38,996 nt of DNA, taken from Ginsengibacter sp. (GTDB taxonomy: Bacteria > Bacteroidota > Bacteroidia > Chitinophagales > Chitinophagaceae). Location of the stretch: NCBI GenBank assembly GCA_039922095.1, contig JBDSAQ010000001.1, positions 1 to 38,996 on the forward strand. The letters are read 5' to 3'. Positions within the stretch are counted from its first letter, which is position 1; the number at the start of each line of letters is the position of its first letter. Made by a program: the position numbers and the translations under genes. The notes under the pieces were generated by a model. The model was not told the origin of the DNA and made no database searches. It saw only the letters and a program-made list of their open reading frames with translations. Shown here piece after piece: positions 1 to 15,322 of the stretch.

Positions 1-2
1 CT

Positions 3-671
3 GAGTTCGAAGTTCTGAAACCCTATTTTGCAAAAGCACTTAAATCAAACAATATAAAAGTTGACATCCATGCAGAGTTTGAAAACAGTCAACTGGTTTG
101 TCTGATGGCAACTTCTGCAGATATTGAAAAAATAAACCAGGAAGTAATTGAGGGAGTAAAATTCAAATTTATTACAAAGAATTTTTTCGGGCAGAAACAG
201 ATAACTGAAGAAAATCTTTTAACGGCAACTGAATTGCAAAATGGTAAGCAACAACTTTATTCAGATGGAAAACAACTTTTGGACGACATCCTCATGAACA
301 AGGATTTTAAACATTCACAACAATTACGTTTTTTAGCAACCAAGCATGAAGGAACGCATCTAAAAATCAGATTTGTGTTAAGCCCCTTTTCATTCGTATT
401 TCTATTATCAGGCGAACAACAGTTCCATATTATTTTAGAAACACTTGACACGGAAGAAGCAACTTATTTGTGGCACACTGACAAAAACAAACAAGCCCTT
501 ATAAGCAAAGTAAAAGAAATTGACCAGCAGCTAAACATAATTCATAGCAAAGGCAGACAAGTATTTTTAGAAACAAACCCTGAGGACTTTTCAAAAATAT
601 TACATGACTATTCCGACAAAAAGAAAGGGTTTATTATTTGGAAAGACTTACTGGAAGAACAAATTGTATGA
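3..671 (+). CDS. C-terminal part of a larger protein running off the left edge; possibly the C-terminus of a Bacteroidota DEAD/DEAH-box helicase
   Basis: Frame is open from position 3, so ATG 105 is internal. The HIILETLDTEEATYLWH segment recalls Bacteroidota helicase C-termini (recollection only; no helicase motifs in view). Confidence 0.45.
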   Translation, partial: EFEVLKPYFAKALKSNNIKVDIHAEFENSQLVCLMATSADIEKINQEVIEGVKFKFITKNFFGQKQITEENLLTATELQNGKQQLYSDGKQLLDDILMNKDFKHSQQLRFLATKHEGTHLKIRFVLSPFSFVFLLSGEQQFHIILETLDTEEATYLWHTDKNKQALISKVKEIDQQLNIIHSKGRQVFLETNPEDFSKILHDYSDKKKGFIIWKDLLEEQIV

Positions 672-737
672 CACAGAAAGCCAATAATTGCACATGACCT
701 GAAGACAATAGGCTAAGTCACTAATAGCCAACGCCTC

Positions 738-806
738 AAGGTAAGCACGTTGGCAGGCACCCAAAAACTAGCAGCTCCGAAGACAACCTGCCAAAGAGCT
801 TGCCTT
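738..806 (+). other. Structured hairpin motif, copy 1
   Basis: aaggtaagc(738-746)/gcttgcctt(798-806) and ttggcagg(750-757)/cctgccaa(787-794) pair around an ACG/AGA internal loop. Same architecture as 37644-37697. Confidence 0.7.
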
Positions 807-880
807 CTGCTCGGCTTGGGTAACAGTCTTTACGTTAACACCGTTAAAATGCAAGATTCTTATAACTGACAGACGGAAGA

Positions 881-1071
881 GCGAACGTACAACAATGGGG
901 TTTGCCAAAATACAGGGCGGAAATTATCTTCAATATCAGCTACATATCCGACTGACCGAACACAGATGAGCAACAGAATATGTTTTCAACTTCAGTATCT
1001 TTAATCGGCTGCAGTTCGGGGGTGGACGTTTCCAAATGCCTGCCGAACGCAAAGCTGTGGCCGTTGTGTGT
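881..1071 (+). repeat. attC-like cassette boundary element 1
   Basis: Starts gcgaacgtaCAAC, ends ccGTTgtgtgt. Inner arms ggtttgcc..cagggc / gcctgcc..gcaaagc. Shares internal taatcggct.cagtt and tt.caaat motifs with elements 2 and 3. Confidence 0.7.
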
Positions 1072-1128
1072 CCTTGAATAAAAGCAGCTTGGACAGACAA
1101 AACATCCGCAAATAACTTCAATAAAAAT

Positions 1129-1518
1129 ATGACAAGATTAGACCCAATAATTGCAGTAAAAGATATTGAAGCCAGTTCAAGTTGGTATCAAAAAATATTT
1201 GAACTTAGAAACAATCACGGTGGTGAGCATTTTTCAACTTTAGTTTCTGATGATAATGAAATCCTTCTCTGTCTTCACAAATGGGAAGAACATAACCATC
1301 CAACAATGACAAATCCAGGTATAACACCGGGAAATGGACTATTACTTTATTTCAGAACGGAAAATATGATTGATATCTACCAAAATGCTATAGAAGCAGG
1401 TTGTGTAATAGAAGAAGGTATTCATTTAAATCCAAATTCTTTAAGAAAGGAATTTTCATTTCGTGACCCGGATGGGTATTTTTTGACAGTTACTGAATTT
1501 CATAAGTATGAAGGATAA
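1129..1518 (+). CDS. VOC/glyoxalase-bleomycin resistance family protein (cassette-like)
   Basis: 129 aa with VKDIEASSSWYQ and EFSFRDPDGY motifs. Confidence 0.85.
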   Translation: MTRLDPIIAVKDIEASSSWYQKIFELRNNHGGEHFSTLVSDDNEILLCLHKWEEHNHPTMTNPGITPGNGLLLYFRTENMIDIYQNAIEAGCVIEEGIHLNPNSLRKEFSFRDPDGYFLTVTEFHKYEG

Positions 1519-1579
1519 CCCGAACCTGGGAAAGCAAAAGATTATCCCCTGACACAGATTGGAAGCGAATGAAAAAATA

Positions 1580-1754
1580 GCGAACACACAACGGACACGG
1601 CCTTGGCAATATGGCGGGGACGAATATGTGCTCAACTTTTTGTTTACTAATCGGCTCCAGTTGCAGTCGACGAGTACCACCCAGCAATAGTATAAAAAAA
1701 ATGAACTTTTTATTTATAAATTTAGCTTCCATTACTTGCTGACGATCTTCAAAT
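1580..1754 (+). repeat. attC-like element 2, right arm deleted
   Basis: Left arm gcgaacacaCAAC...ggcaatatggcgg. Aligns with element 3, including the identical block ttttatttataaatttagcttc. Similarity ends at ttcaaat, 6 nt before the next ATG. Confidence 0.75.
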
Positions 1755-1760
1755 GTCTTA

Positions 1761-2561
1761 ATGAAAAAAATCCTTCTTAGAACACTAAAACTTGTTGCAG
1801 GACTTTACATTATCATTTGTGTACTTCTATTCTTTTTTCAAGAGAAAGTAATTTTCTTTCCACAAAAATTAGAAAGCGATTACAAATTTAGCTTCGACCA
1901 AAAATTCGAAGAATTAAGCATAAGGATGAAAGACAACAAATTGCTAAATGCTATCCTTTTTAAGGCAGACAGTTCAAAAGGTGTAATATTTTATTTACAC
2001 GGTAATGCAGGCTCTTTAAGTTCGTGGGGTGGCGTGGCAAAAACATACACAGATTTGAATTACGACGTTTTTATGTTGGACTATAGAGGCTATGGAAAAA
2101 GTGAAGGTTCAATAGACGGACAAACTCAATTTTTTCAAGACATTCAAACTACTTACGACGAATTGAAAAGTAAATATGTCGAAGGCAAAATAATAGTTTT
2201 AGGTTACTCAATAGGAACAGGACTTGCGGCTAAAGTAGCATCTACAAACAACCCTCGACTTTTAATTTTACAAGCACCTTATTATAGCTTGACAGATATG
2301 ATGCGACATACTTATCGAATAATTCCAACCTTTATCCTAAAATATAAATTTGAGACACATGAATATATAAAGAACTGCAAAATGCCGATTGTAATTTTTC
2401 ACGGAAATTCAGATGAAGTAATTTATTACGGTTCTTCATTAAAACTAAAGAAAGGGTTAAAAAAACAAGACACCATAATAACACTTATTGGACAAGGACA
2501 TAACGGAATGACTGAAAATCCAGATTATAAAACGGAAATCCAAAAAGTTCTGAGAAGATGA
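1761..2561 (+). CDS. Alpha/beta hydrolase (ABHD17/BEM46-like)
   Basis: N-terminal TM helix, HGNAG, DYRGYG, GYSIG nucleophile elbow, D and H near the C-terminus. Confidence 0.9.
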   Translation: MKKILLRTLKLVAGLYIIICVLLFFFQEKVIFFPQKLESDYKFSFDQKFEELSIRMKDNKLLNAILFKADSSKGVIFYLHGNAGSLSSWGGVAKTYTDLNYDVFMLDYRGYGKSEGSIDGQTQFFQDIQTTYDELKSKYVEGKIIVLGYSIGTGLAAKVASTNNPRLLILQAPYYSLTDMMRHTYRIIPTFILKYKFETHEYIKNCKMPIVIFHGNSDEVIYYGSSLKLKKGLKKQDTIITLIGQGHNGMTENPDYKTEIQKVLRR

Positions 2562-2564
2562 AAA

Positions 2565-2770
2565 GCGAACGCACAACAGGTAGGTGGGCAATATTGCGGG
2601 GCAATGAATATATGCTCGACTTTTTATTCGTTACCTCGACTTCAGTTCCAGCCGTAGAATAACGCCGGACAATAAAATAAACAATGGACTTTTATTTATA
2701 AATTTAGCTTCGGTTACGTGCTGACGATTTTCAAATACCGCCATATCGCCGAGCCATACCATTGGGCGAA
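2565..2770 (+). repeat. attC-like element 3, full length
   Basis: gcgaacgcaCAAC..ggcaatattgcgg(2587-2599) ... ccgccatatcgcc(2738-2750)..ccATTgggcgaa. Imperfect palindrome, paralogous to element 2. Confidence 0.75.
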
Positions 2771-2789
2771 AAGAAAACAAAACACTCTA

Positions 2790-3392
2790 ATGAGCGAAGA
2801 CTTATTGACCCAAAAACTTTTTGATGAAATTGTTGAGATGGAAAAATCTGAAAGACGATGGTTGTCCCCTAAATCAATAATCAAAACGACCAAAGAAGTT
2901 GCTACAAAAGGAAAGGAAAAATACGGTTTGAGTGATAAACCTTTTGTTATTCGTCGCAATATAAAACTTGACTTATTTTTATGGATTGCTATGACTTGTA
3001 TTATTTTAGGACCTATGACTTATGGAATTATAGAAGAATTTAGAAGTAGTAATTCAAACATTTTGGGAGTTACATTTTTATCTCTTTTCGTGATACTCTT
3101 TTTATTTGTTGGTTATAAAAACTTGACTTTAAAAGCTCTGACTTCACCAATTACTTTTACAACTCAAGAGTTGACTATAAATGATAAGACATTTACTTGG
3201 TTTGAAATTCAAGAAACGTTTTGCGTTTTGAGATTTGCAGGCAGAACTAGGAGAACTTCATTCGTTATCGGATTGAAGAATGGAGTAATTCATTTTTTTG
3301 ATATCGATAATCAACTGGGCTTTAAATATAGTGAGAGAGATTTTTCTAAATTTGTTGAACATTATAAACACTTCACTTCGCCCAACAAATAG
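2790..3392 (+). CDS. Hypothetical membrane protein with 2 TM helices (cassette-like)
   Basis: ATG 2790 preferred because the ORF-track start at 2718 lies inside element 3. Confidence 0.7.
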   Translation: MSEDLLTQKLFDEIVEMEKSERRWLSPKSIIKTTKEVATKGKEKYGLSDKPFVIRRNIKLDLFLWIAMTCIILGPMTYGIIEEFRSSNSNILGVTFLSLFVILFLFVGYKNLTLKALTSPITFTTQELTINDKTFTWFEIQETFCVLRFAGRTRRTSFVIGLKNGVIHFFDIDNQLGFKYSERDFSKFVEHYKHFTSPNK

Positions 3393-3414
3393 GGATTAAA
3401 CGAAGAGAAAAATA

Positions 3415-3819
3415 ATGACAGAAAAAAAATCATCCAATCAAAATTTCTTGGGGACAGCAGCCCTGATAGTTGCGTTGGCCGGAGCAGTCGGCTCACTCTA
3501 TTTTATGTTCAGTGCAGGTCGTAAACAAAATTCTATTATTTTGCTTGGGCTTTTTACAGCTTGGGTTCTTTCCCCATTTGTAGGACTATTTATCTCAAAT
3601 AAAATTTCCAATCGCTGGACAGTTCCTGCCCGTAGATTTCTTTACTGGTTTACAATAGTTCTGACACTTGGTTCTTTGATTGCTTACAGTGGTGCATTTA
3701 ATACACCTGAGACAAAAAATGCGTTTATATTTCTTATTTTTCCGATGATTTCATGGTTTCTTATTGTGGCTGTTTTCTTGATAGCGAGAAAACTTTCCAA
3801 CAAGAACTTAAACTCTTAA
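3415..3819 (+). CDS. Hypothetical 4-TM membrane protein
   Basis: 134 aa, four hydrophobic segments, A-rich leader. Confidence 0.75.
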   Translation: MTEKKSSNQNFLGTAALIVALAGAVGSLYFMFSAGRKQNSIILLGLFTAWVLSPFVGLFISNKISNRWTVPARRFLYWFTIVLTLGSLIAYSGAFNTPETKNAFIFLIFPMISWFLIVAVFLIARKLSNKNLNS

Positions 3820-3863
3820 CAAAAGGAAGAAGGAATCCAAAATTGCAAGAAAGGTATTTACTC

Positions 3864-4265
3864 TTACAAGCTGGGTTTTTTTACAAACATCCCACTATAA
3901 CACTTCCGATACGCATATCCCAAAAACAAGTTGGTTACAATCAGAATAACTCCCATTAACCAGCCAGAGGGAACTAAAATGGTGTGATACAGTAATATAT
4001 TTAAACTGATGGGAAATAGTACAACAGCGCTAAAAGGTGCATACCGATTTACCAATAGTGATATGCCACCTGCAATTTGAATCGATTTTATCATAGGGTA
4101 AAAGTATCCGACTCCTAATAGGCCCGCTTTAAAAGCTGCTACTCTGCCTGTATGATTGGGTTGATAAGGAATAAAATGCAAAAAATAATCCAGACCGAAG
4201 ACCAGGTAAATGAATCCAAGTATGATCCGTGATACTATGGTTGCTTTTTTCATTGTATTGCTCAT
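3864..4265 (-). CDS. DoxX family membrane protein
   Basis: RIILGFIYLVFGL...QIAGGISLL...FPISLNILLYH pattern. Confidence 0.8.
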   Translation of the reverse strand: MSNTMKKATIVSRIILGFIYLVFGLDYFLHFIPYQPNHTGRVAAFKAGLLGVGYFYPMIKSIQIAGGISLLVNRYAPFSAVVLFPISLNILLYHTILVPSGWLMGVILIVTNLFLGYAYRKCYSGMFVKKPSL

Positions 4266-4486
4266 TTAATAGTAAATTAAAACAACTTAATTTTTTAAAT
4301 AGAATCAAATATAACTTTATATCGAGGAGTGCCGCTTACATCAACTTTACGGTCTTACTGAGCAATAATTTGGGCTTAATTTAAAAACAAATTTGGTACT
4401 TTACATATCCTGGAATACGCAAATACTCAACATTGTGCGCCATTAGTTAAAGTGTATTATTATTGATGGCACTATAAAATATAAAA

Positions 4487-4726
4487 ATGTCTAATCAGAA
4501 TCCCCAAATTATTCCCATGCTTTCATATGAAGATGGAATTGCTGCAATGGATTGGCTGTGTAAAGTATTTGGCTTTTCCGAAAGGATCCGCATGTTAGAT
4601 GATAATGGCATACTTACTCATGGAGAAATTACATTAGGAGACGGCGTCATTATGTTAGCTTCTCCAACCCCTGATTACCAATTTGGTTTCATATCGGCAG
4701 TACAGTACATTATCATCAACCGATAA
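4487..4726 (+). pseudogene. Truncated VOC/glyoxalase (PhnB-like) gene
   Basis: IPMLSYEDGIAAMDWLCKVFGF...HGEITLGDGVIML is a typical N-terminal half. The C-terminal DPEG-type half is missing. Confidence 0.7.
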
Positions 4727-4757
4727 ATGTGAGGCATTACGACAAAAAATCTATTAT

Positions 4758-5306
4758 ATGAATCCGCTCAAAACACTTTTAAATTCTGTTATGCAGGCCC
4801 GCCAACAATTAATTGAAGTGGCGTCAGGACTGACCTTTGAACAATCGCAATTTAAATCTTCAGGGGATGCATGGTCTATTGCTGATATTATAGAGCATAT
4901 GGTGTGGGCAGAAATGGGAGGAATCAATGGAATTTGGAAAACTCTTGAGGGAATAAAAAATAACAAACCTATCTGGAAAGGTGAAGCGATTCACCACGGT
5001 TTAGCTATTGAAGAAATTATTGAGAAAACATGGAGAGCAAAAGAGCAGGTTCCTGAATCTGCTAAACCCAGGTGGGCGGGGCCTGTTGAATATTGGATTG
5101 TGGCGCTGGACAATTGTCAGAAGCTACTTGAGTCTTTGTGTCGTGAACTTGATGGGTATGACCTTGAGCAGATTATTTACCCTCATATTATTTCGGGTCC
5201 ACTAAATGTAGTTCAGAGAATGGAGTTCTTGAGATTTCATTTAAACCGTCACCAAACGCAAATTGAAAATATCAAAACTCATCCTGATTTCCCTTCTGCC
5301 TCCTGA
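4758..5306 (+). CDS. DinB family protein
   Basis: WSIADIIEHM and HLNRH metal-binding His pattern. ATG 4758 chosen. Confidence 0.8.
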   Translation: MNPLKTLLNSVMQARQQLIEVASGLTFEQSQFKSSGDAWSIADIIEHMVWAEMGGINGIWKTLEGIKNNKPIWKGEAIHHGLAIEEIIEKTWRAKEQVPESAKPRWAGPVEYWIVALDNCQKLLESLCRELDGYDLEQIIYPHIISGPLNVVQRMEFLRFHLNRHQTQIENIKTHPDFPSAS

Positions 5307-5564
5307 GCTTTAAGGAAAATATCTGCGTTTGACGGCAAGGCTCTTAAGTTCCGTAATGCCCATCACATAACCATTGTAGCCGATGCAACTACTTTTAAAA
5401 AATTAAAGCTGGAACTTATATTTTTAGTTTCCTTAATTTTTAGGTGAGAGGATAGTTTTGTAACTGGGGTTGTGAAAAGGTTGCCGTAATGTGGGGTAAT
5501 AAGAAGAAAGTATAAAGCTTGCAAATCTTTTTTAATGATTTTTGCAGAACATTAAAATTCAAAA

Positions 5565-8042
5565 ATGAAACTATCAATTAATCTAATGTATTCATTCCTG
5601 GTGAACAGCAGAACTTTAAGTCGCATCAAGGCATTAGGGTTATTGATCATTCTGTTTTCAAATTTTGTAACAGCTCAACAAGCGAGAACAAAAATTGATT
5701 TTGATAATAACTGGAAGTTTACATTAGATAGCTCTCAGCAATACAATGAGCAAAATGTAAATGATGCATCGTGGCGAACTTTAAACCTTCCGCACGACTG
5801 GAGTATTGAAGGAACGTTTAGTAAAGATCATCCTGCATCACCCGGCGGAGGTGCATTGCCCGGCGGTATAGGATGGTATCGCAAAATATTCTTACTACCT
5901 GCAACAGATAAAAATAAATTAATCTTTATAGATTTTGATGGCGTTTACTGTAACAGTGAAGTATGGATCAACGGACACTCTTTAGGGATCCGTCCCAACG
6001 GTTATATTTCTTTTCAATATGATCTTACACCTTATCTGAAATTTGGTACAGGTAAAAATGTAATTGCGGTTAAGGTTGATAATTCAAAACAACCAAATTC
6101 CCGCTGGTACAGTGGTTCAGGAATATACAGAAACGTATGGCTGCTGAAAACAAATAAAACTTATGTTGATCACTGGGGCACGTTTATCACAACTCCCATA
6201 GTAACAAACAGGGAAGCAATAGTAAAAGTGCTAACCAGAATTGTAAATGCTGAAGGCAATAAAAAATCATTGCAGCTTACCACAACTTTATATAATATAT
6301 CAGGAAAAATAGCAGGGCAATCATCAACCCAAATAAATAGCAGCGATAACTTTGAATCAAATGAAACAATAAGAATTTCACTGCCTCAGCTTTGGTCGGT
6401 GGATCACCCATATTTATATAAGGCTGTTTCGCAGGTAAAATCCGGAACCCAAATTTTGGACACTTATGAAACAACATTTGGTATCCGTTATTTCAACTTT
6501 GATATGGATAAAGGGTTTTCCTTAAATGGAAGGCCGTTGAAGATTTTGGGTGTTTGCAATCATCACGATCTTGGAGCATTAGGTTCTGCTTTTAATACAA
6601 GGGCAGCCGAAAGGCAGCTCGAAATTTTAAAGGCAATGGGCTGTAATGGTATCCGCACTTCTCACAATCCGCCGGCGCCGGAGTTGTTAGAGCTTTGTGA
6701 TAAAATGGGATTTATCGTTATAGATGAAGCCTTTGATATGTGGGCAAAACAAAAGTCGAAGTATGATTATCATTTGTATTGGAAACAATGGCATAAGAAA
6801 GATCTGGAAGATCAGATTCTAAGAGATAGAAATCATCCTTCTGTTTTTATGTGGAGCCTTGGTAATGAAGTTCCCGAACAATATAGAGATGAAAAAAATC
6901 CAGATACTTCCGGCCGTATTATAGCAAGAGAACTGGTGAGCATAATGAAAACACTTGATACTACACGCCCGGCAGTAACTGCCAATAACGAAGCAAATAC
7001 ATGGAACAATGTTTTGCAATCCGGCGCTTTTGAATTGGCAGGCTATAACTATAATCATGACGTGTGGGAAAAGTTTCACCAAAGATGGCCTGGCAAAAAG
7101 CTGATTGTTACAGAAAGTACCTCCGCCCTTGAAACCCGTGGCTATTACGATCTTGTACCTTTTGATACTATCCGCCGGTGGCCCAAACGGTGGGATATCC
7201 CTTTCGCAAATCCTTCCGGAGATTATACTGTTTCTGCTTATGATAATGTTAGTGCACCCTGGGGTTCAACGCATGAAGAAAGCATAAAAGCATTGATGAA
7301 AAGTGATCTTGTTTCGGGCATGTATATCTGGACAGGCTTCGATTATCTCGGCGAACCTACTCCTTACTCGTGGCCTGCACGCAGTTCTTATTTTGGTATC
7401 ATTGATCTGGCTGGCTTTCCTAAAGACGTTTATTACTTATATCAAAGTAAGTTTACAAACAAGCCCGTTCTGCACATTTATCCTCATTGGAACTGGAAAG
7501 GCGGAGATACAGTTGATATAGTTTCTTATTATAATAATGCCGATGAAGTAGAACTTTTTCTGAATGGAAAAACACTTGGTTCACAAAGTAAAAAAGGTGA
7601 TGACCTCCATGTAAAATGGCGCTTGCCTTTTGAAGCAGGAACCTTAAAGGCTGTATCAAGAAAAAATGGAAAAATTGTTTTAACTAAAGAAATAAGAACA
7701 GCCGGTGATCCTGCCGGAATTATTTTATCAGCAGATAGAAAACTTATTAAAGCTGATGGAAAAGATCTTTCATTCATCACAGCAACAATTGTTGATAAAA
7801 ATGGAGTAACAGTGCCTGGAGCAAACAATCTTATTAAGTATAAAATATCCGGACAGGCTTTTATTGCCGGGGTTGATAGCGGCGATCCTATAAGTCATGA
7901 GCCATTTAAGTCGGATAAGCATACCGCACTAAACGGACTTGCATTAGCCATTTTACAATCAAACGGAAAAAAAGGAATTATAAAATTAACGGTAAGTGCA
8001 GAGGGCCTGCAGTCTTCAAGTATAGAGATTGCAGCAAATTGA
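5565..8042 (+). CDS. Glycoside hydrolase family 2 (beta-galactosidase-like)
   Basis: LPHDWSI, DFDGVY, RWYSGSGIYR, IRTSHNPP, DRNHPSVFMWSLGNE, WTGFDYLGEP; signal peptide. Confidence 0.95.
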   Translation: MKLSINLMYSFLVNSRTLSRIKALGLLIILFSNFVTAQQARTKIDFDNNWKFTLDSSQQYNEQNVNDASWRTLNLPHDWSIEGTFSKDHPASPGGGALPGGIGWYRKIFLLPATDKNKLIFIDFDGVYCNSEVWINGHSLGIRPNGYISFQYDLTPYLKFGTGKNVIAVKVDNSKQPNSRWYSGSGIYRNVWLLKTNKTYVDHWGTFITTPIVTNREAIVKVLTRIVNAEGNKKSLQLTTTLYNISGKIAGQSSTQINSSDNFESNETIRISLPQLWSVDHPYLYKAVSQVKSGTQILDTYETTFGIRYFNFDMDKGFSLNGRPLKILGVCNHHDLGALGSAFNTRAAERQLEILKAMGCNGIRTSHNPPAPELLELCDKMGFIVIDEAFDMWAKQKSKYDYHLYWKQWHKKDLEDQILRDRNHPSVFMWSLGNEVPEQYRDEKNPDTSGRIIARELVSIMKTLDTTRPAVTANNEANTWNNVLQSGAFELAGYNYNHDVWEKFHQRWPGKKLIVTESTSALETRGYYDLVPFDTIRRWPKRWDIPFANPSGDYTVSAYDNVSAPWGSTHEESIKALMKSDLVSGMYIWTGFDYLGEPTPYSWPARSSYFGIIDLAGFPKDVYYLYQSKFTNKPVLHIYPHWNWKGGDTVDIVSYYNNADEVELFLNGKTLGSQSKKGDDLHVKWRLPFEAGTLKAVSRKNGKIVLTKEIRTAGDPAGIILSADRKLIKADGKDLSFITATIVDKNGVTVPGANNLIKYKISGQAFIAGVDSGDPISHEPFKSDKHTALNGLALAILQSNGKKGIIKLTVSAEGLQSSSIEIAAN

Positions 8043-15192: not shown

Positions 15193-15322
15193 TCAGGTAT
15201 CAGCCATCAGGTGTCAGGTATGAGGTATCAGGAGAAAAGAAAGACTTAATGATCAACTTGAGCCATTAACCATCAGAAGAAACAATGAGGTTGATACCTG
15301 ATACCTGACACCTGACACCTGA
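15193..15322. repeat. Inverted arrays of 7-mer tandem repeats
   Basis: About 6 x TCAGGTR (15193-15234) facing 4 x YACCTGA (15295-15322). Confidence 0.85.

What the first reader, a model, noticed from the sequence alone, without database searches (positions are those of the whole stretch)
881..3392. Integron-like cassette array with long attC-like palindromes in a Bacteroidota genome, no integrase in view
Seen: unrelated single genes (VOC, hydrolase, membrane protein), all on +, are separated by paralogous imperfect palindromes at 881-1071, 1580-1754 and 2565-2770. Each starts GCGAACRYACAAC, and the complete ones end ccRTTG, with pairing inner arms (ggcaatatKgcgg / ccgccatatcgcc). Established: integron attC sites run RYYYAAC...GTTRRRY and are usually under ~150 bp, and integrons are considered rare in this phylum. 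Inference: this is a divergent cassette-capture system with ~180-205 bp sites, served in trans by a tyrosine recombinase encoded elsewhere.
Basis: partly seen in the sequence, partly recalled or inferred. Interest (0 to 1): 0.9.

Follow-up and report, generated by a model that had tools for sequence, protein, structure and literature searches.

The report
Integron-like cassettes without integron integrase
These repeats are worn copies of a site that borders single genes in long arrays across Bacteroidota genomes; the arrays are laid out like an integron and are likely shuffled by a neighbouring recombinase that lacks the protein segment thought essential for integron enzymes, and I found no intact copy of that recombinase in this genome.

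Summary
Real, but damaged. The three repeats belong to a family of ~196-bp (and ~132-bp) attC-like sites: 15 complete copies in this genome versus 0 in a shuffle. Only a 17-bp terminal arm pairs (strongly covarying, no bulged bases). In related arrays each site's R'' box complements the R' box of the preceding site (64/93 perfect) rather than its own (4/93), the footprint of cassette shuffling; five cassette pairs recur behind different neighbours, starting exactly at GTT. In relatives the arrays follow, on the same strand, an attI-like site and a ~405-aa tyrosine recombinase (59/127 genus genomes) lacking the IntI insertion; no IntI was found in 127. In the window, E1 has mismatched arms, E2 lacks its right arm, E3 has ATT for GTT, and a fourth stub (3377-3386) was missed. 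The array sits at a contig edge; this incomplete genome shows only a recombinase remnant, so 'served in trans' is unproven. Works like an integron, is not an IntI integron. Seven literature searches found no description; this scan has reported the same system on other DNA many times. No activity was tested.

The parts
1..671 (+). ORF cut by the contig start (>=222 aa, no Pfam hit); probable gene of the cassette that ends at E1
   Evidence: window = whole contig C1
714..841 (+). second non-coding hairpin family (TTGGCAGG/CCTGCCAA stem) in the cassette tail; function unexplained
   Evidence: 12 profile hits in genome plus loci, 3 of the 12 end 27-41 nt before a site
881..1071 (+). site E1: R'' box 881-893, left arm 900-916, right arm 1039-1055, R' box from GTT at 1063; arms mismatched (8/17), probably chimeric or decayed
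   Evidence: (score 47)
1063..1592 (+). VOC cassette body: begins at E1's GTT, ends at E2's R''; the two ends are complementary at 9 of 10 (E1's own R'' gives 7 of 10)
1129..1518 (+). glyoxalase/VOC-family gene, 129 aa
   Evidence: PF00903 E 4.6e-8; homologues in 33 of 127 genus genomes
1580..1754 (+). site E2: R'' box, left arm and middle; right arm and R' box deleted, hydrolase ATG follows 6 nt later
   Evidence: the closest VOC homologue (L099, 90% aa) keeps a right arm of this type downstream
1761..2561 (+). alpha/beta hydrolase gene, 266 aa; cassette 5' end lost
   Evidence: PF12146 E 5e-21; homologue L129 shares sequence through E3's R'' box, 1758-2578, 85%
2565..2770 (+). site E3: R'' 2565-2577, left arm 2583-2599, right arm 2738-2754 (12/17 pairs), R' box 2761-2770 with ATT in place of GTT
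   Evidence: (score 53)
2790..3392 (+). 200-aa gene with hydrophobic stretches (weak DUF4271 hit below cut-off); body of the cassette between E3 and E4
3377..3386 (+). site E4 stub: R'' box only, overlapping the gene's 3' end; complementary to E3's R' at 9 of 10
   Evidence: such a 10-mer occurs 141 times in 8.48 M positions, about 0.001 per 60 nt
3415..3819 (+). 134-aa hydrophobic ORF after the E4 stub, no site detected behind it; possibly a further decayed cassette

Best explanation
The window holds the decayed tail of a gene-cassette array whose sites belong to a Bacteroidota-wide family that follows an attI-like site and a ~405-aa tyrosine recombinase lacking the IntI insertion, and that enzyme likely inserts and excises the cassettes as an integron integrase does. 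Shown: site anatomy (R'' box ending AAC, asymmetric 4-5 x 6-8 nt loop, 17-bp bulge-free arm, unpaired conserved middle, R' box starting GTT); one gene per unit on the same strand; each cassette's two ends are complementary over about 10 nt, which places the crossover within GTT; the same cassettes recur behind different sites; enzyme, attI-like site and array are co-oriented. Inferred: the enzyme is the catalyst; the substrate is the folded bottom strand (conserved top-strand A.C mismatches at arm positions 7 and 10 become G.T wobbles there); these fixed mismatches may take the place of extrahelical bases; the extra N-terminal DUF5710-like domain and an adjacent ssb gene may help handle the folded strand. 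In this window all four sites are damaged and no intact enzyme gene was found in the assembly, so this array is probably immobile or partly so.
For: R-box exchange: at offsets 3-6 the R'' box matches the previous site's R' 81-89%, its own R' 31-43%, random 27-49%; previous better in 78, worse in 9, tie 6 of 93 pairs; repeated in 53 pairs from 15 loci of other genera, 40 vs 1, 12 ties; holds for both testable window cassettes, 9/10 vs 7/10 and 6/10. Five cassette pairs (79-92% identical) align from the G of GTT to the next R'' with unrelated sequence upstream (24-28%), two of them behind an attC-like site in one genome and an attI-like site in the other. 80 GTDB loci of the enzyme: 84 sites downstream, all on its strand (348 kb), 8 upstream (633 kb), 2 in shuffles. 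Enzyme in 59 of 127 genus genomes, 38 of 58 good ones; TIGR02249 over cut-off in 0 of 127 though it scores IntI1 at 507 bits. No insertion: 24 residues against 64 in VchIntIA; motif spacing 60-64 against 102 in IntI1. Arm covariation: mutual information 0.7-1.0 bit in register, <=0.27 off register, 264 sites; 11 of 15 RNAalifold pairs compensatory in 30 chosen sites. attI-like profile: 7 hits at E<1e-4 in this genome, one behind the C534 enzyme remnant. Bottom strand folds better in 45 of 60 reconstituted sites.
Against: No activity data; no excised circle or rearranged allele seen (contigs only). Of 37 enzyme loci with >=3 kb downstream only 21 show a site and 14 show two or more (my detector was trained on one genus and missed arrays that a model-free test found in L208 and L200). 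3 of 9 intact-enzyme loci show no attI box matching the first site. Only 2 of 29 VOC homologue loci carry a complete site nearby, so the gene is mostly found outside recognisable cassettes. Strand evidence is mixed: arm position 1 is T.G on the top strand in 52%. ssb is adjacent in 12 of 21 genus loci but only 7 of 80 wider loci. The N-terminal domain was not detected in 6 of 23 array-bearing enzymes and is present in 8 of 12 with no site detected; its fold matches are middling (Z 7.2 or less). Sites are related by descent, so the counts overstate independence.
Confidence: 0.72

Rival explanations
1. Same enzyme and same cassettes, but recombination is on double-stranded or cruciform DNA with two strand exchanges, Xer-style; the arm is a cruciform or paired binding site and the conserved middle (a motif repeated at about 69-nt spacing) binds the N-terminal domain or a host factor.
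For: The enzyme is closest to XerA by profile and sequence and lacks I2, which is tied to single-strand recombination (PMC7790495, passages). No extrahelical bases. The middle is about 60% conserved though unpaired, site length comes in two sharp classes, 132 and about 196 nt, and the long class is self-similar at lag 68-70.
Against: R'' and R' of one site in an array do not pair better than random, which suits substrates rebuilt on excision; arm sequence is free while pairing is kept; A.C outnumbers G.T on the top strand 441 to 219.
Confidence: 0.14
2. These are ordinary, unusually long attC sites (CALINs) moved by a canonical IntI met in passing; the neighbouring I2-less recombinase is a bystander.
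For: RYYYAAC...GTT cores and cassette layout are integron-like; a complete integron is reported in one Bacteroidetes, Salinibacter ruber (PMC9024848, passage); EHB removal does not abolish IntI recombination (PMC2727003, passage).
Against: No IntI in 127 genus genomes; the I2-less enzyme heads arrays across several families with strict polarity and its own conserved attI-like site whose GTT box matches the first cassette at 10 of 11 in 5 of 9 loci.
Confidence: 0.06
3. Arrays are assembled by other mobile elements found in them: IS91-like elements with their own tyrosine recombinase, or group II introns.
For: Y-recombinase + Y2_Tnp pairs and an RT/maturase lie directly beside sites in L029, L030, L031, L088, L089, L092; IS91 and XerD are reported beside Chryseobacterium resistance genes (PMC11194056, passages).
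Against: They sit inside arrays, in either orientation, and are missing from the long clean arrays L085, L086, L093, L096; they form separate branches (quick tree).
Confidence: 0.04
4. The repeats are MITE/REP-like insertions or structured RNAs that gather behind genes.
For: Copies are spread over many contigs; covarying arms would also suit an RNA hairpin.
Against: Flanking duplications of >=3 nt in 1 of 175 sites, shuffled 1.4 (6 vs 3.0+-1.7 with a wider box); 109 of 190 sites follow a same-strand ORF within 60 nt, 11 an opposite-strand one; R-box exchange between neighbours has no such explanation; no Rfam family.
Confidence: 0.02

Closest known systems
Sedentary chromosomal integrons (IntI, attI, attC; VchIntIA PDB 2A3V; IntI1)
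   Same: Tyrosine recombinase, an adjacent attI-like site, single-gene cassettes in one orientation, sites bounded by AAC and GTT with unpaired central loop and paired arm, crossover within GTT, cassette ends complementary.
   Different: No IntI insertion (about 40 residues shorter there); extra ~75-aa N-terminal domain; enzyme on the same strand upstream of the array (most integrons are opposite, PMC4889954 passage); arm has no extrahelical bases but fixed A.C mismatches; R box about 10 nt; sites 132 or about 196 nt with conserved unpaired middle; several attI-like sites per genome.
CALIN (attC cluster lacking an integrase, IntegronFinder term)
   Same: Sites and cassettes with no enzyme nearby, as in this window.
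   Different: The cognate enzyme in relatives is not IntI; whether IntegronFinder's attC model scores these sites could not be run.
Archaeal XerA / 'site-specific tyrosine recombinase/integron integrase' (NF040815; PDB 4A8E, 5HXY)
   Same: Best profile and sequence match of the core (209 bits, cut-off 220); collinear with no insertion.
   Different: Below cut-off; accessory (absent from many genomes, which keep XerC/D-like genes as G000 does); heads cassette arrays; N-terminal extension.
IS91-like elements with a partner tyrosine recombinase; group II introns in attC arrays
   Same: Related recombinase fold; found in or beside these sites.
   Different: Passengers inside arrays, not at their head; ~290-310 aa, no N-terminal domain.
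Flavo-1 RNA motif (Rfam RF01705)
   Same: Bacteroidota intergenic structured repeat (recalled as a lead).
   Different: 76 positions; no match over cut-off in this genome and none at these sites.

Membership tests
Integron (IntI-type) | Tyrosine recombinase with catalytic R-K-H-R-H-Y residues beside the array | tested here: met
   In relatives: PF00589 + PF13495, invariant GLR..E, KGKKDR, H.LRHSFATH, LGH, Y383. In this genome only a remnant.
Integron (IntI-type) | IntI-specific insertion (I2 helix) in the catalytic domain | tested here: not met
   24 vs 64 residues against 2A3V; spacing 60-64 in 21 of 22 array-bearing and 5 of 5 genus enzymes vs 102 in IntI1, one value of 143 not checked; TIGR02249 160-174 bits, cut-off 265. 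Feature as defined in passages of PMC7790495, PMC8138268, bioRxiv 2022.02.06.479319.
Integron (IntI-type) | attI site next to the integrase where the first cassette begins at GTT | tested here: met
   Conserved ~110-nt region ending in a GTT box after the enzyme in 19 loci; box matches first site's R'' at 10 of 11 in 5 of 9 loci, 8 of 11 in one, no match in three. Function inferred. None in this window.
Integron (IntI-type) | attC with R'' (RYYYAAC) and R' (GTTRRRY) boxes, unpaired central spacer, paired L arm, variable terminal part | tested here: met
   Consensus cngcnnccAACA ... CGTTagnngc; loops 4-5 x 6-8 nt, 17-bp arm; compensatory pairs.
Integron (IntI-type) | Two or three extrahelical bases on the R''-L'' arm | tested here: not met
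   Arm pairs in ungapped register; most frequent left-arm bulge in 6 of 264 sites; A.C at position 10 in 86% and position 7 in 51%. Definition from PMC2727003 passages.
Integron (IntI-type) | Cassettes are mobile units bounded at the GTT crossover | tested here: met
   (comparative evidence only).
Integron (IntI-type) | Recombination of the folded bottom strand, single strand exchange | not testable with these tools
   Indirect only: bottom strand more stable in 45 of 60.
Integron (IntI-type) | Pc promoter driving the cassettes | tested here: inconclusive
   Sigma-70 scan of 600-4000 at chance level, 11 vs 11.1; the scan does not cover Bacteroidota promoters and the array head is not in the window.
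CALIN | Cluster of attC sites scored by the IntegronFinder model with no integrase nearby | not testable with these tools
   IntegronFinder's covariance model is not available here; no enzyme within this contig.
MITE / REP | Target-site duplication and placement independent of gene orientation | tested here: not met
Flavo-1 and other Rfam families | Match at gathering score | tested here: not met
   0 matches to E<=5 in window 1-6000; only one tRNA in 8 array loci, 117,775 nt; RF01705 none over cut-off.
HARP / UvsW-N / XPB damage-recognition-like domain (N-terminus of the enzyme) | Shared fold | tested here: inconclusive
   Model pLDDT 89.9; top matches archaeal XPB N-terminal half Z 7.2 (56 aa, 1.6 A), T4 UvsW Z 7.1, XPB II Z 6.7, MotA 5.2; SMARCAL1 HARP E 0.31; DUF5710 in 17 of 21 members at E<=5, best 1.7e-4. 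That these domains form one family binding branched or distorted DNA is recalled, not read here.

The most novel reading that the evidence does not exclude
A second, phylum-wide integron lineage that never had (or replaced) the I2 helix: an XerA-like enzyme with a HARP/XPB-type N-terminal domain, often beside its own ssb gene, recombines folded sites marked by G.T wobbles instead of flipped-out bases, seeds many attI-like docking sites per genome, reaches Bacillota and plasmids, and is the unrecognised platform behind the 'xerD' beside tet(X3). It would be a living stand-in for the missing intermediate in the origin of integrons and a large cassette pool that IntegronFinder does not count.
Probability: 0.3. 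Interest if true: 0.93.

Novelty: new variant of a known kind. Interest (0 to 1): 0.78.

Why it matters
The I2 insertion is treated as the defining and essential innovation of integron integrases, and Escudero et al. note the lack of intermediates (PMC7790495, passages). A natural enzyme without I2 that runs integron-like arrays would make that question directly testable with the standard attI x attC assays. Surveys report almost no complete integrons in Bacteroidetes (PMC9024848) and none in Elizabethkingia anophelis (PMC11523902); here the platform enzyme is in 38 of 58 good genomes of one genus and beside arrays in Chitinophagaceae, Flavobacteriaceae, Spirosomataceae and others, so a major route of gene exchange in this phylum may be uncounted. 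A family member lies next to tet(X3) on an Acinetobacter plasmid, where papers call it xerD and leave its role open. This particular window adds a decayed example, not a new part.

Tried and rejected
Whole-element folding: no signal. End-profile HMM pairing found only 4 sites; a first weight-matrix model drifted to GC-rich noise and was retrained with core and pairing filters; a purely structural scan was too noisy. Recombinases first seen beside sites (L029-L031) proved to be IS91 partners. Idea that the enzyme gene is itself a cassette: no conserved 5' boundary upstream of the genus enzymes. Idea that site length steps are exact helical multiples: the internal repeat lag is 68-70, not 63. 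E3 has no DNA match in plasmids, E1 none in phages. An attI-like site before the hydrolase homologue in L129, or before tet(X3) in L238, was suspected by eye but did not score with the genus profile. Sequencing runs: 4 DNA holders, none with half the words, no RNA holder listed; laid contigs show many other sites diverging after the arm and one jump 1671 to 2723 between paralogous sites, which I do not count as excision. The tree is the quick one only, with 37 of 86 inner branches open; it does not place the family relative to IntI (C-terminal 300 residues, loci with short or truncated ORFs left out). The ESM Atlas gave no answer for the N-terminal domain. No paper on the HARP/UvsW/MotA link was found in the library. 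No covariance model was built.
Full report
Observation. The window is the whole of contig C1 of a 4.24-Mb, 552-contig, 89%-complete assembly. They belong to a dispersed family: 35 profile hits in the genome, 15 complete sites against 0 in a shuffled genome, all 15 within 3 kb of a contig end. They are not palindromic throughout (z -0.03 and +0.17). No Rfam family matches them.

Anatomy of the site. From 264 distinct sites (genus loci, this genome, and loci of other families): lengths peak at 131-133 and 193-199 nt. An R'' box ending AAC is followed by an asymmetric loop (4-5 nt left, 6-8 nt right), a 17-bp arm, an unpaired but about 60% conserved middle, the partner arm and an R' box starting GTT. 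The arm covaries strongly (0.7-1.0 bit in register at the variable columns, at most 0.27 two columns off; 11 of 15 consensus pairs compensatory in 30 sites that I picked). It has no conserved bulge (commonest left-arm bulge 6 of 264). Instead arm positions 7 and 10 are A.C on the top strand in 51% and 86%, which are G.T wobbles on the bottom strand; position 1 goes the other way (T.G on top, 52%). Canonical attC sites carry two or three extrahelical bases (PMC2727003, passages).

Evidence that the units move. If a cassette is cut within GTT, the bases after GTT belong to the next cassette and should complement that cassette's own R''. In 93 adjacent pairs from genus arrays the R'' matches the previous site's R' at offsets 3-6 in 81-89%, its own R' in 31-43%, random partners in 27-49%; all five offsets 3-7 match in 64 of 93 against 4 of 93. 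The match extends to offsets 8, 9 and 11. In 53 pairs from 15 loci of other genera: 43 perfect against 3. Among 145 cassette bodies, five pairs (79-92% identical) align exactly from the G of GTT with unrelated DNA upstream, including Sediminibacterium against Flavobacterium and one cassette of this genome (C475); two other pairs did not start at GTT. Target-site duplications are at chance level, and 109 of 190 sites follow a same-strand ORF within 60 nt. Kinship among sites inflates these counts, but the own-site control shares that kinship.

The enzyme. This genome has two Xer-like and two other tyrosine recombinases, none near the sites, and a frameshifted C-terminal remnant on C534 directly upstream of a lone GTT box and an array. 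That remnant led to a 400-430-aa family in 59 of 127 genus genomes (38 of 58 at >=90% completeness; tallies include two unpublished genomes). It heads arrays of 6-15 sites within the fetched stretches, on the same strand, in L085, L086, L093 and L096; a truncated copy heads about 30 sites in G007. Across 80 GTDB loci, 84 sites lie downstream, all on the enzyme's strand, and 8 upstream; 21 of the 37 loci with at least 3 kb downstream have a site, and a model-free test found further chains in a Bacillota and a Bacteroidia locus but none in several others. The enzyme scores below the IntI cut-off and best against XerA, and lacks about 40 residues where VchIntIA has its insertion. No IntI was found in the 127 genomes (positive control). 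A conserved region of about 110 nt ending in a GTT box follows the gene; that box complements the first site's R'' at 10 of 11 in 5 of 9 loci. The same profile finds 7 sites at E<1e-4 in this genome; of 8 examined besides C534, four have a 9-10 of 10 partner downstream and four do not. The enzyme has a 75-aa N-terminal domain, weakly DUF5710-like, whose model matches XPB and UvsW N-terminal domains at Z about 7, a middling score. An ssb gene (PF00436) is adjacent in 12 of 21 genus loci and 7 of 80 wider loci.

This window. E1's R' complements E2's R'' at 9 of 10 (own 7), and E3's R' complements a stub at 3377-3386 at 9 of 10 (own 6), so the VOC gene and the 200-aa gene are cassettes by the family rule. 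But E1's arms pair at 8 of 17, E2 has lost its right arm and R' box together with the start of the hydrolase cassette, E3's core is ATT and E4 is only an R'' box. A metagenome contig spans 3117-3756 without gaps, so the E4 truncation is not an assembly error of this genome alone. VOC homologues occur in 33 of 127 genomes with nearly all-different neighbours, but only 2 of 29 loci show a complete site: against my reading, or a sign that cassettes decay fast once settled. The head of this array lies beyond the contig end.

Mechanism. Most likely (0.72): the I2-less enzyme recombines a folded site with the attI-like site or another site within GTT, inserting and excising single-gene circles. Layout, exchange footprint and association are shown; catalysis, strand and the roles of the mismatches, N-terminal domain and SSB are inferred. 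A double-stranded, Xer-style route (0.14) is the main alternative.

What is known. It works like an integron but fails two defining tests (I2 insertion, extrahelical bases). Seven full-text searches (listings and abstract starts seen) showed no description. Passages only were read of: PMC4889954, PMC9024848 (one complete Bacteroidetes integron, Salinibacter), PMC8618304, PMC8138268 (an 'integron-like subgroup' whose insertion is 'not fully conserved'; its appendix, which I did not see, may include these enzymes), PMC7790495, PMC2727003, bioRxiv 2022.02.06.479319, PMC11194056, PMC7758954, PMC7473080, PMC11523902, PMC13616975, PMC9368896; PMC8352920 has no hit for three Bacteroidota terms. Most subscription journals are not in the library and no supplements were read, so an earlier description cannot be excluded. 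This scan has reported the same system on other DNA (at least 10 notes in 6 or more genomes); these were leads, and I tested the claims used here myself.

Verdict. Real feature, new variant of a known kind, interest 0.78; the window itself is a decayed member.

Noticed in passing
L238:5028-7330 (NZ_CP041297.1, Acinetobacter indicus plasmid): The truncated 'xerD' before tet(X3) is 48% identical to the family's core and groups with array-bearing Bacteroidota enzymes in the quick tree; the left half of a family site follows the tet(X3) stop codon. The candidate GTT box before the gene matches that site's R'' at only 7 of 10 by eye, and the genus attI profile did not score there. Papers call the gene xerD and leave its role open.
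   Followed up: partly
G000 contigs C490, C404, C393, C74, C246, C475, C534: Seven attI-like sites in one genome, six with no recombinase remnant detected by profile; C393 seems by eye to keep the last codons of the enzyme gene.
   Followed up: partly
window 714-841; also L137, L192, L171, L082, L071: A second non-coding hairpin family in cassette tails, 12 hits, no Rfam match; unexplained.
   Followed up: partly
L029, L030, L031, L088, L089, L092: IS91-like elements (tyrosine recombinase + Y2 transposase) sit directly at these sites, suggesting they target them.
   Followed up: no
L029:7927-9180; L028:7725-8603; L234:15744-17060: Group II intron RT genes inside arrays, two opposite to the cassettes, as recalled for group IIC-attC introns.
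   Followed up: no
L208 (Bacillota MAG), downstream of the enzyme: A chain of six cassettes with perfect 10-nt R-box complementarity and sites of about 90-145 nt with branched, folding middles, behind an I2-less enzyme.
   Followed up: partly
L234 (NZ_CP041688.1, Chryseobacterium plasmid): A plasmid-borne platform: full-length enzyme followed by co-oriented small genes and three ~130-nt sites.
   Followed up: partly
L164, L171: Enzyme plus array on contigs of MAGs labelled Bosea and Asaia, nested among Chitinophagaceae enzymes: transfer or mis-binning.
   Followed up: no
long sites, middle part: The 196-nt class is self-similar at lag 68-70 and looks like the 132-nt class plus one repeated module with a GGCWGA motif.
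   Followed up: partly
window 4487-4726 and 4683-5306: A short VOC-like ORF that ends early, overlapping a DinB-family ORF; probably a truncated gene; a contig in run X1 diverges at 4681.
   Followed up: no
window 15200-15322: A GC-rich inverted repeat with TCAGGTG heptamer repeats, unrelated to the sites.
   Followed up: no
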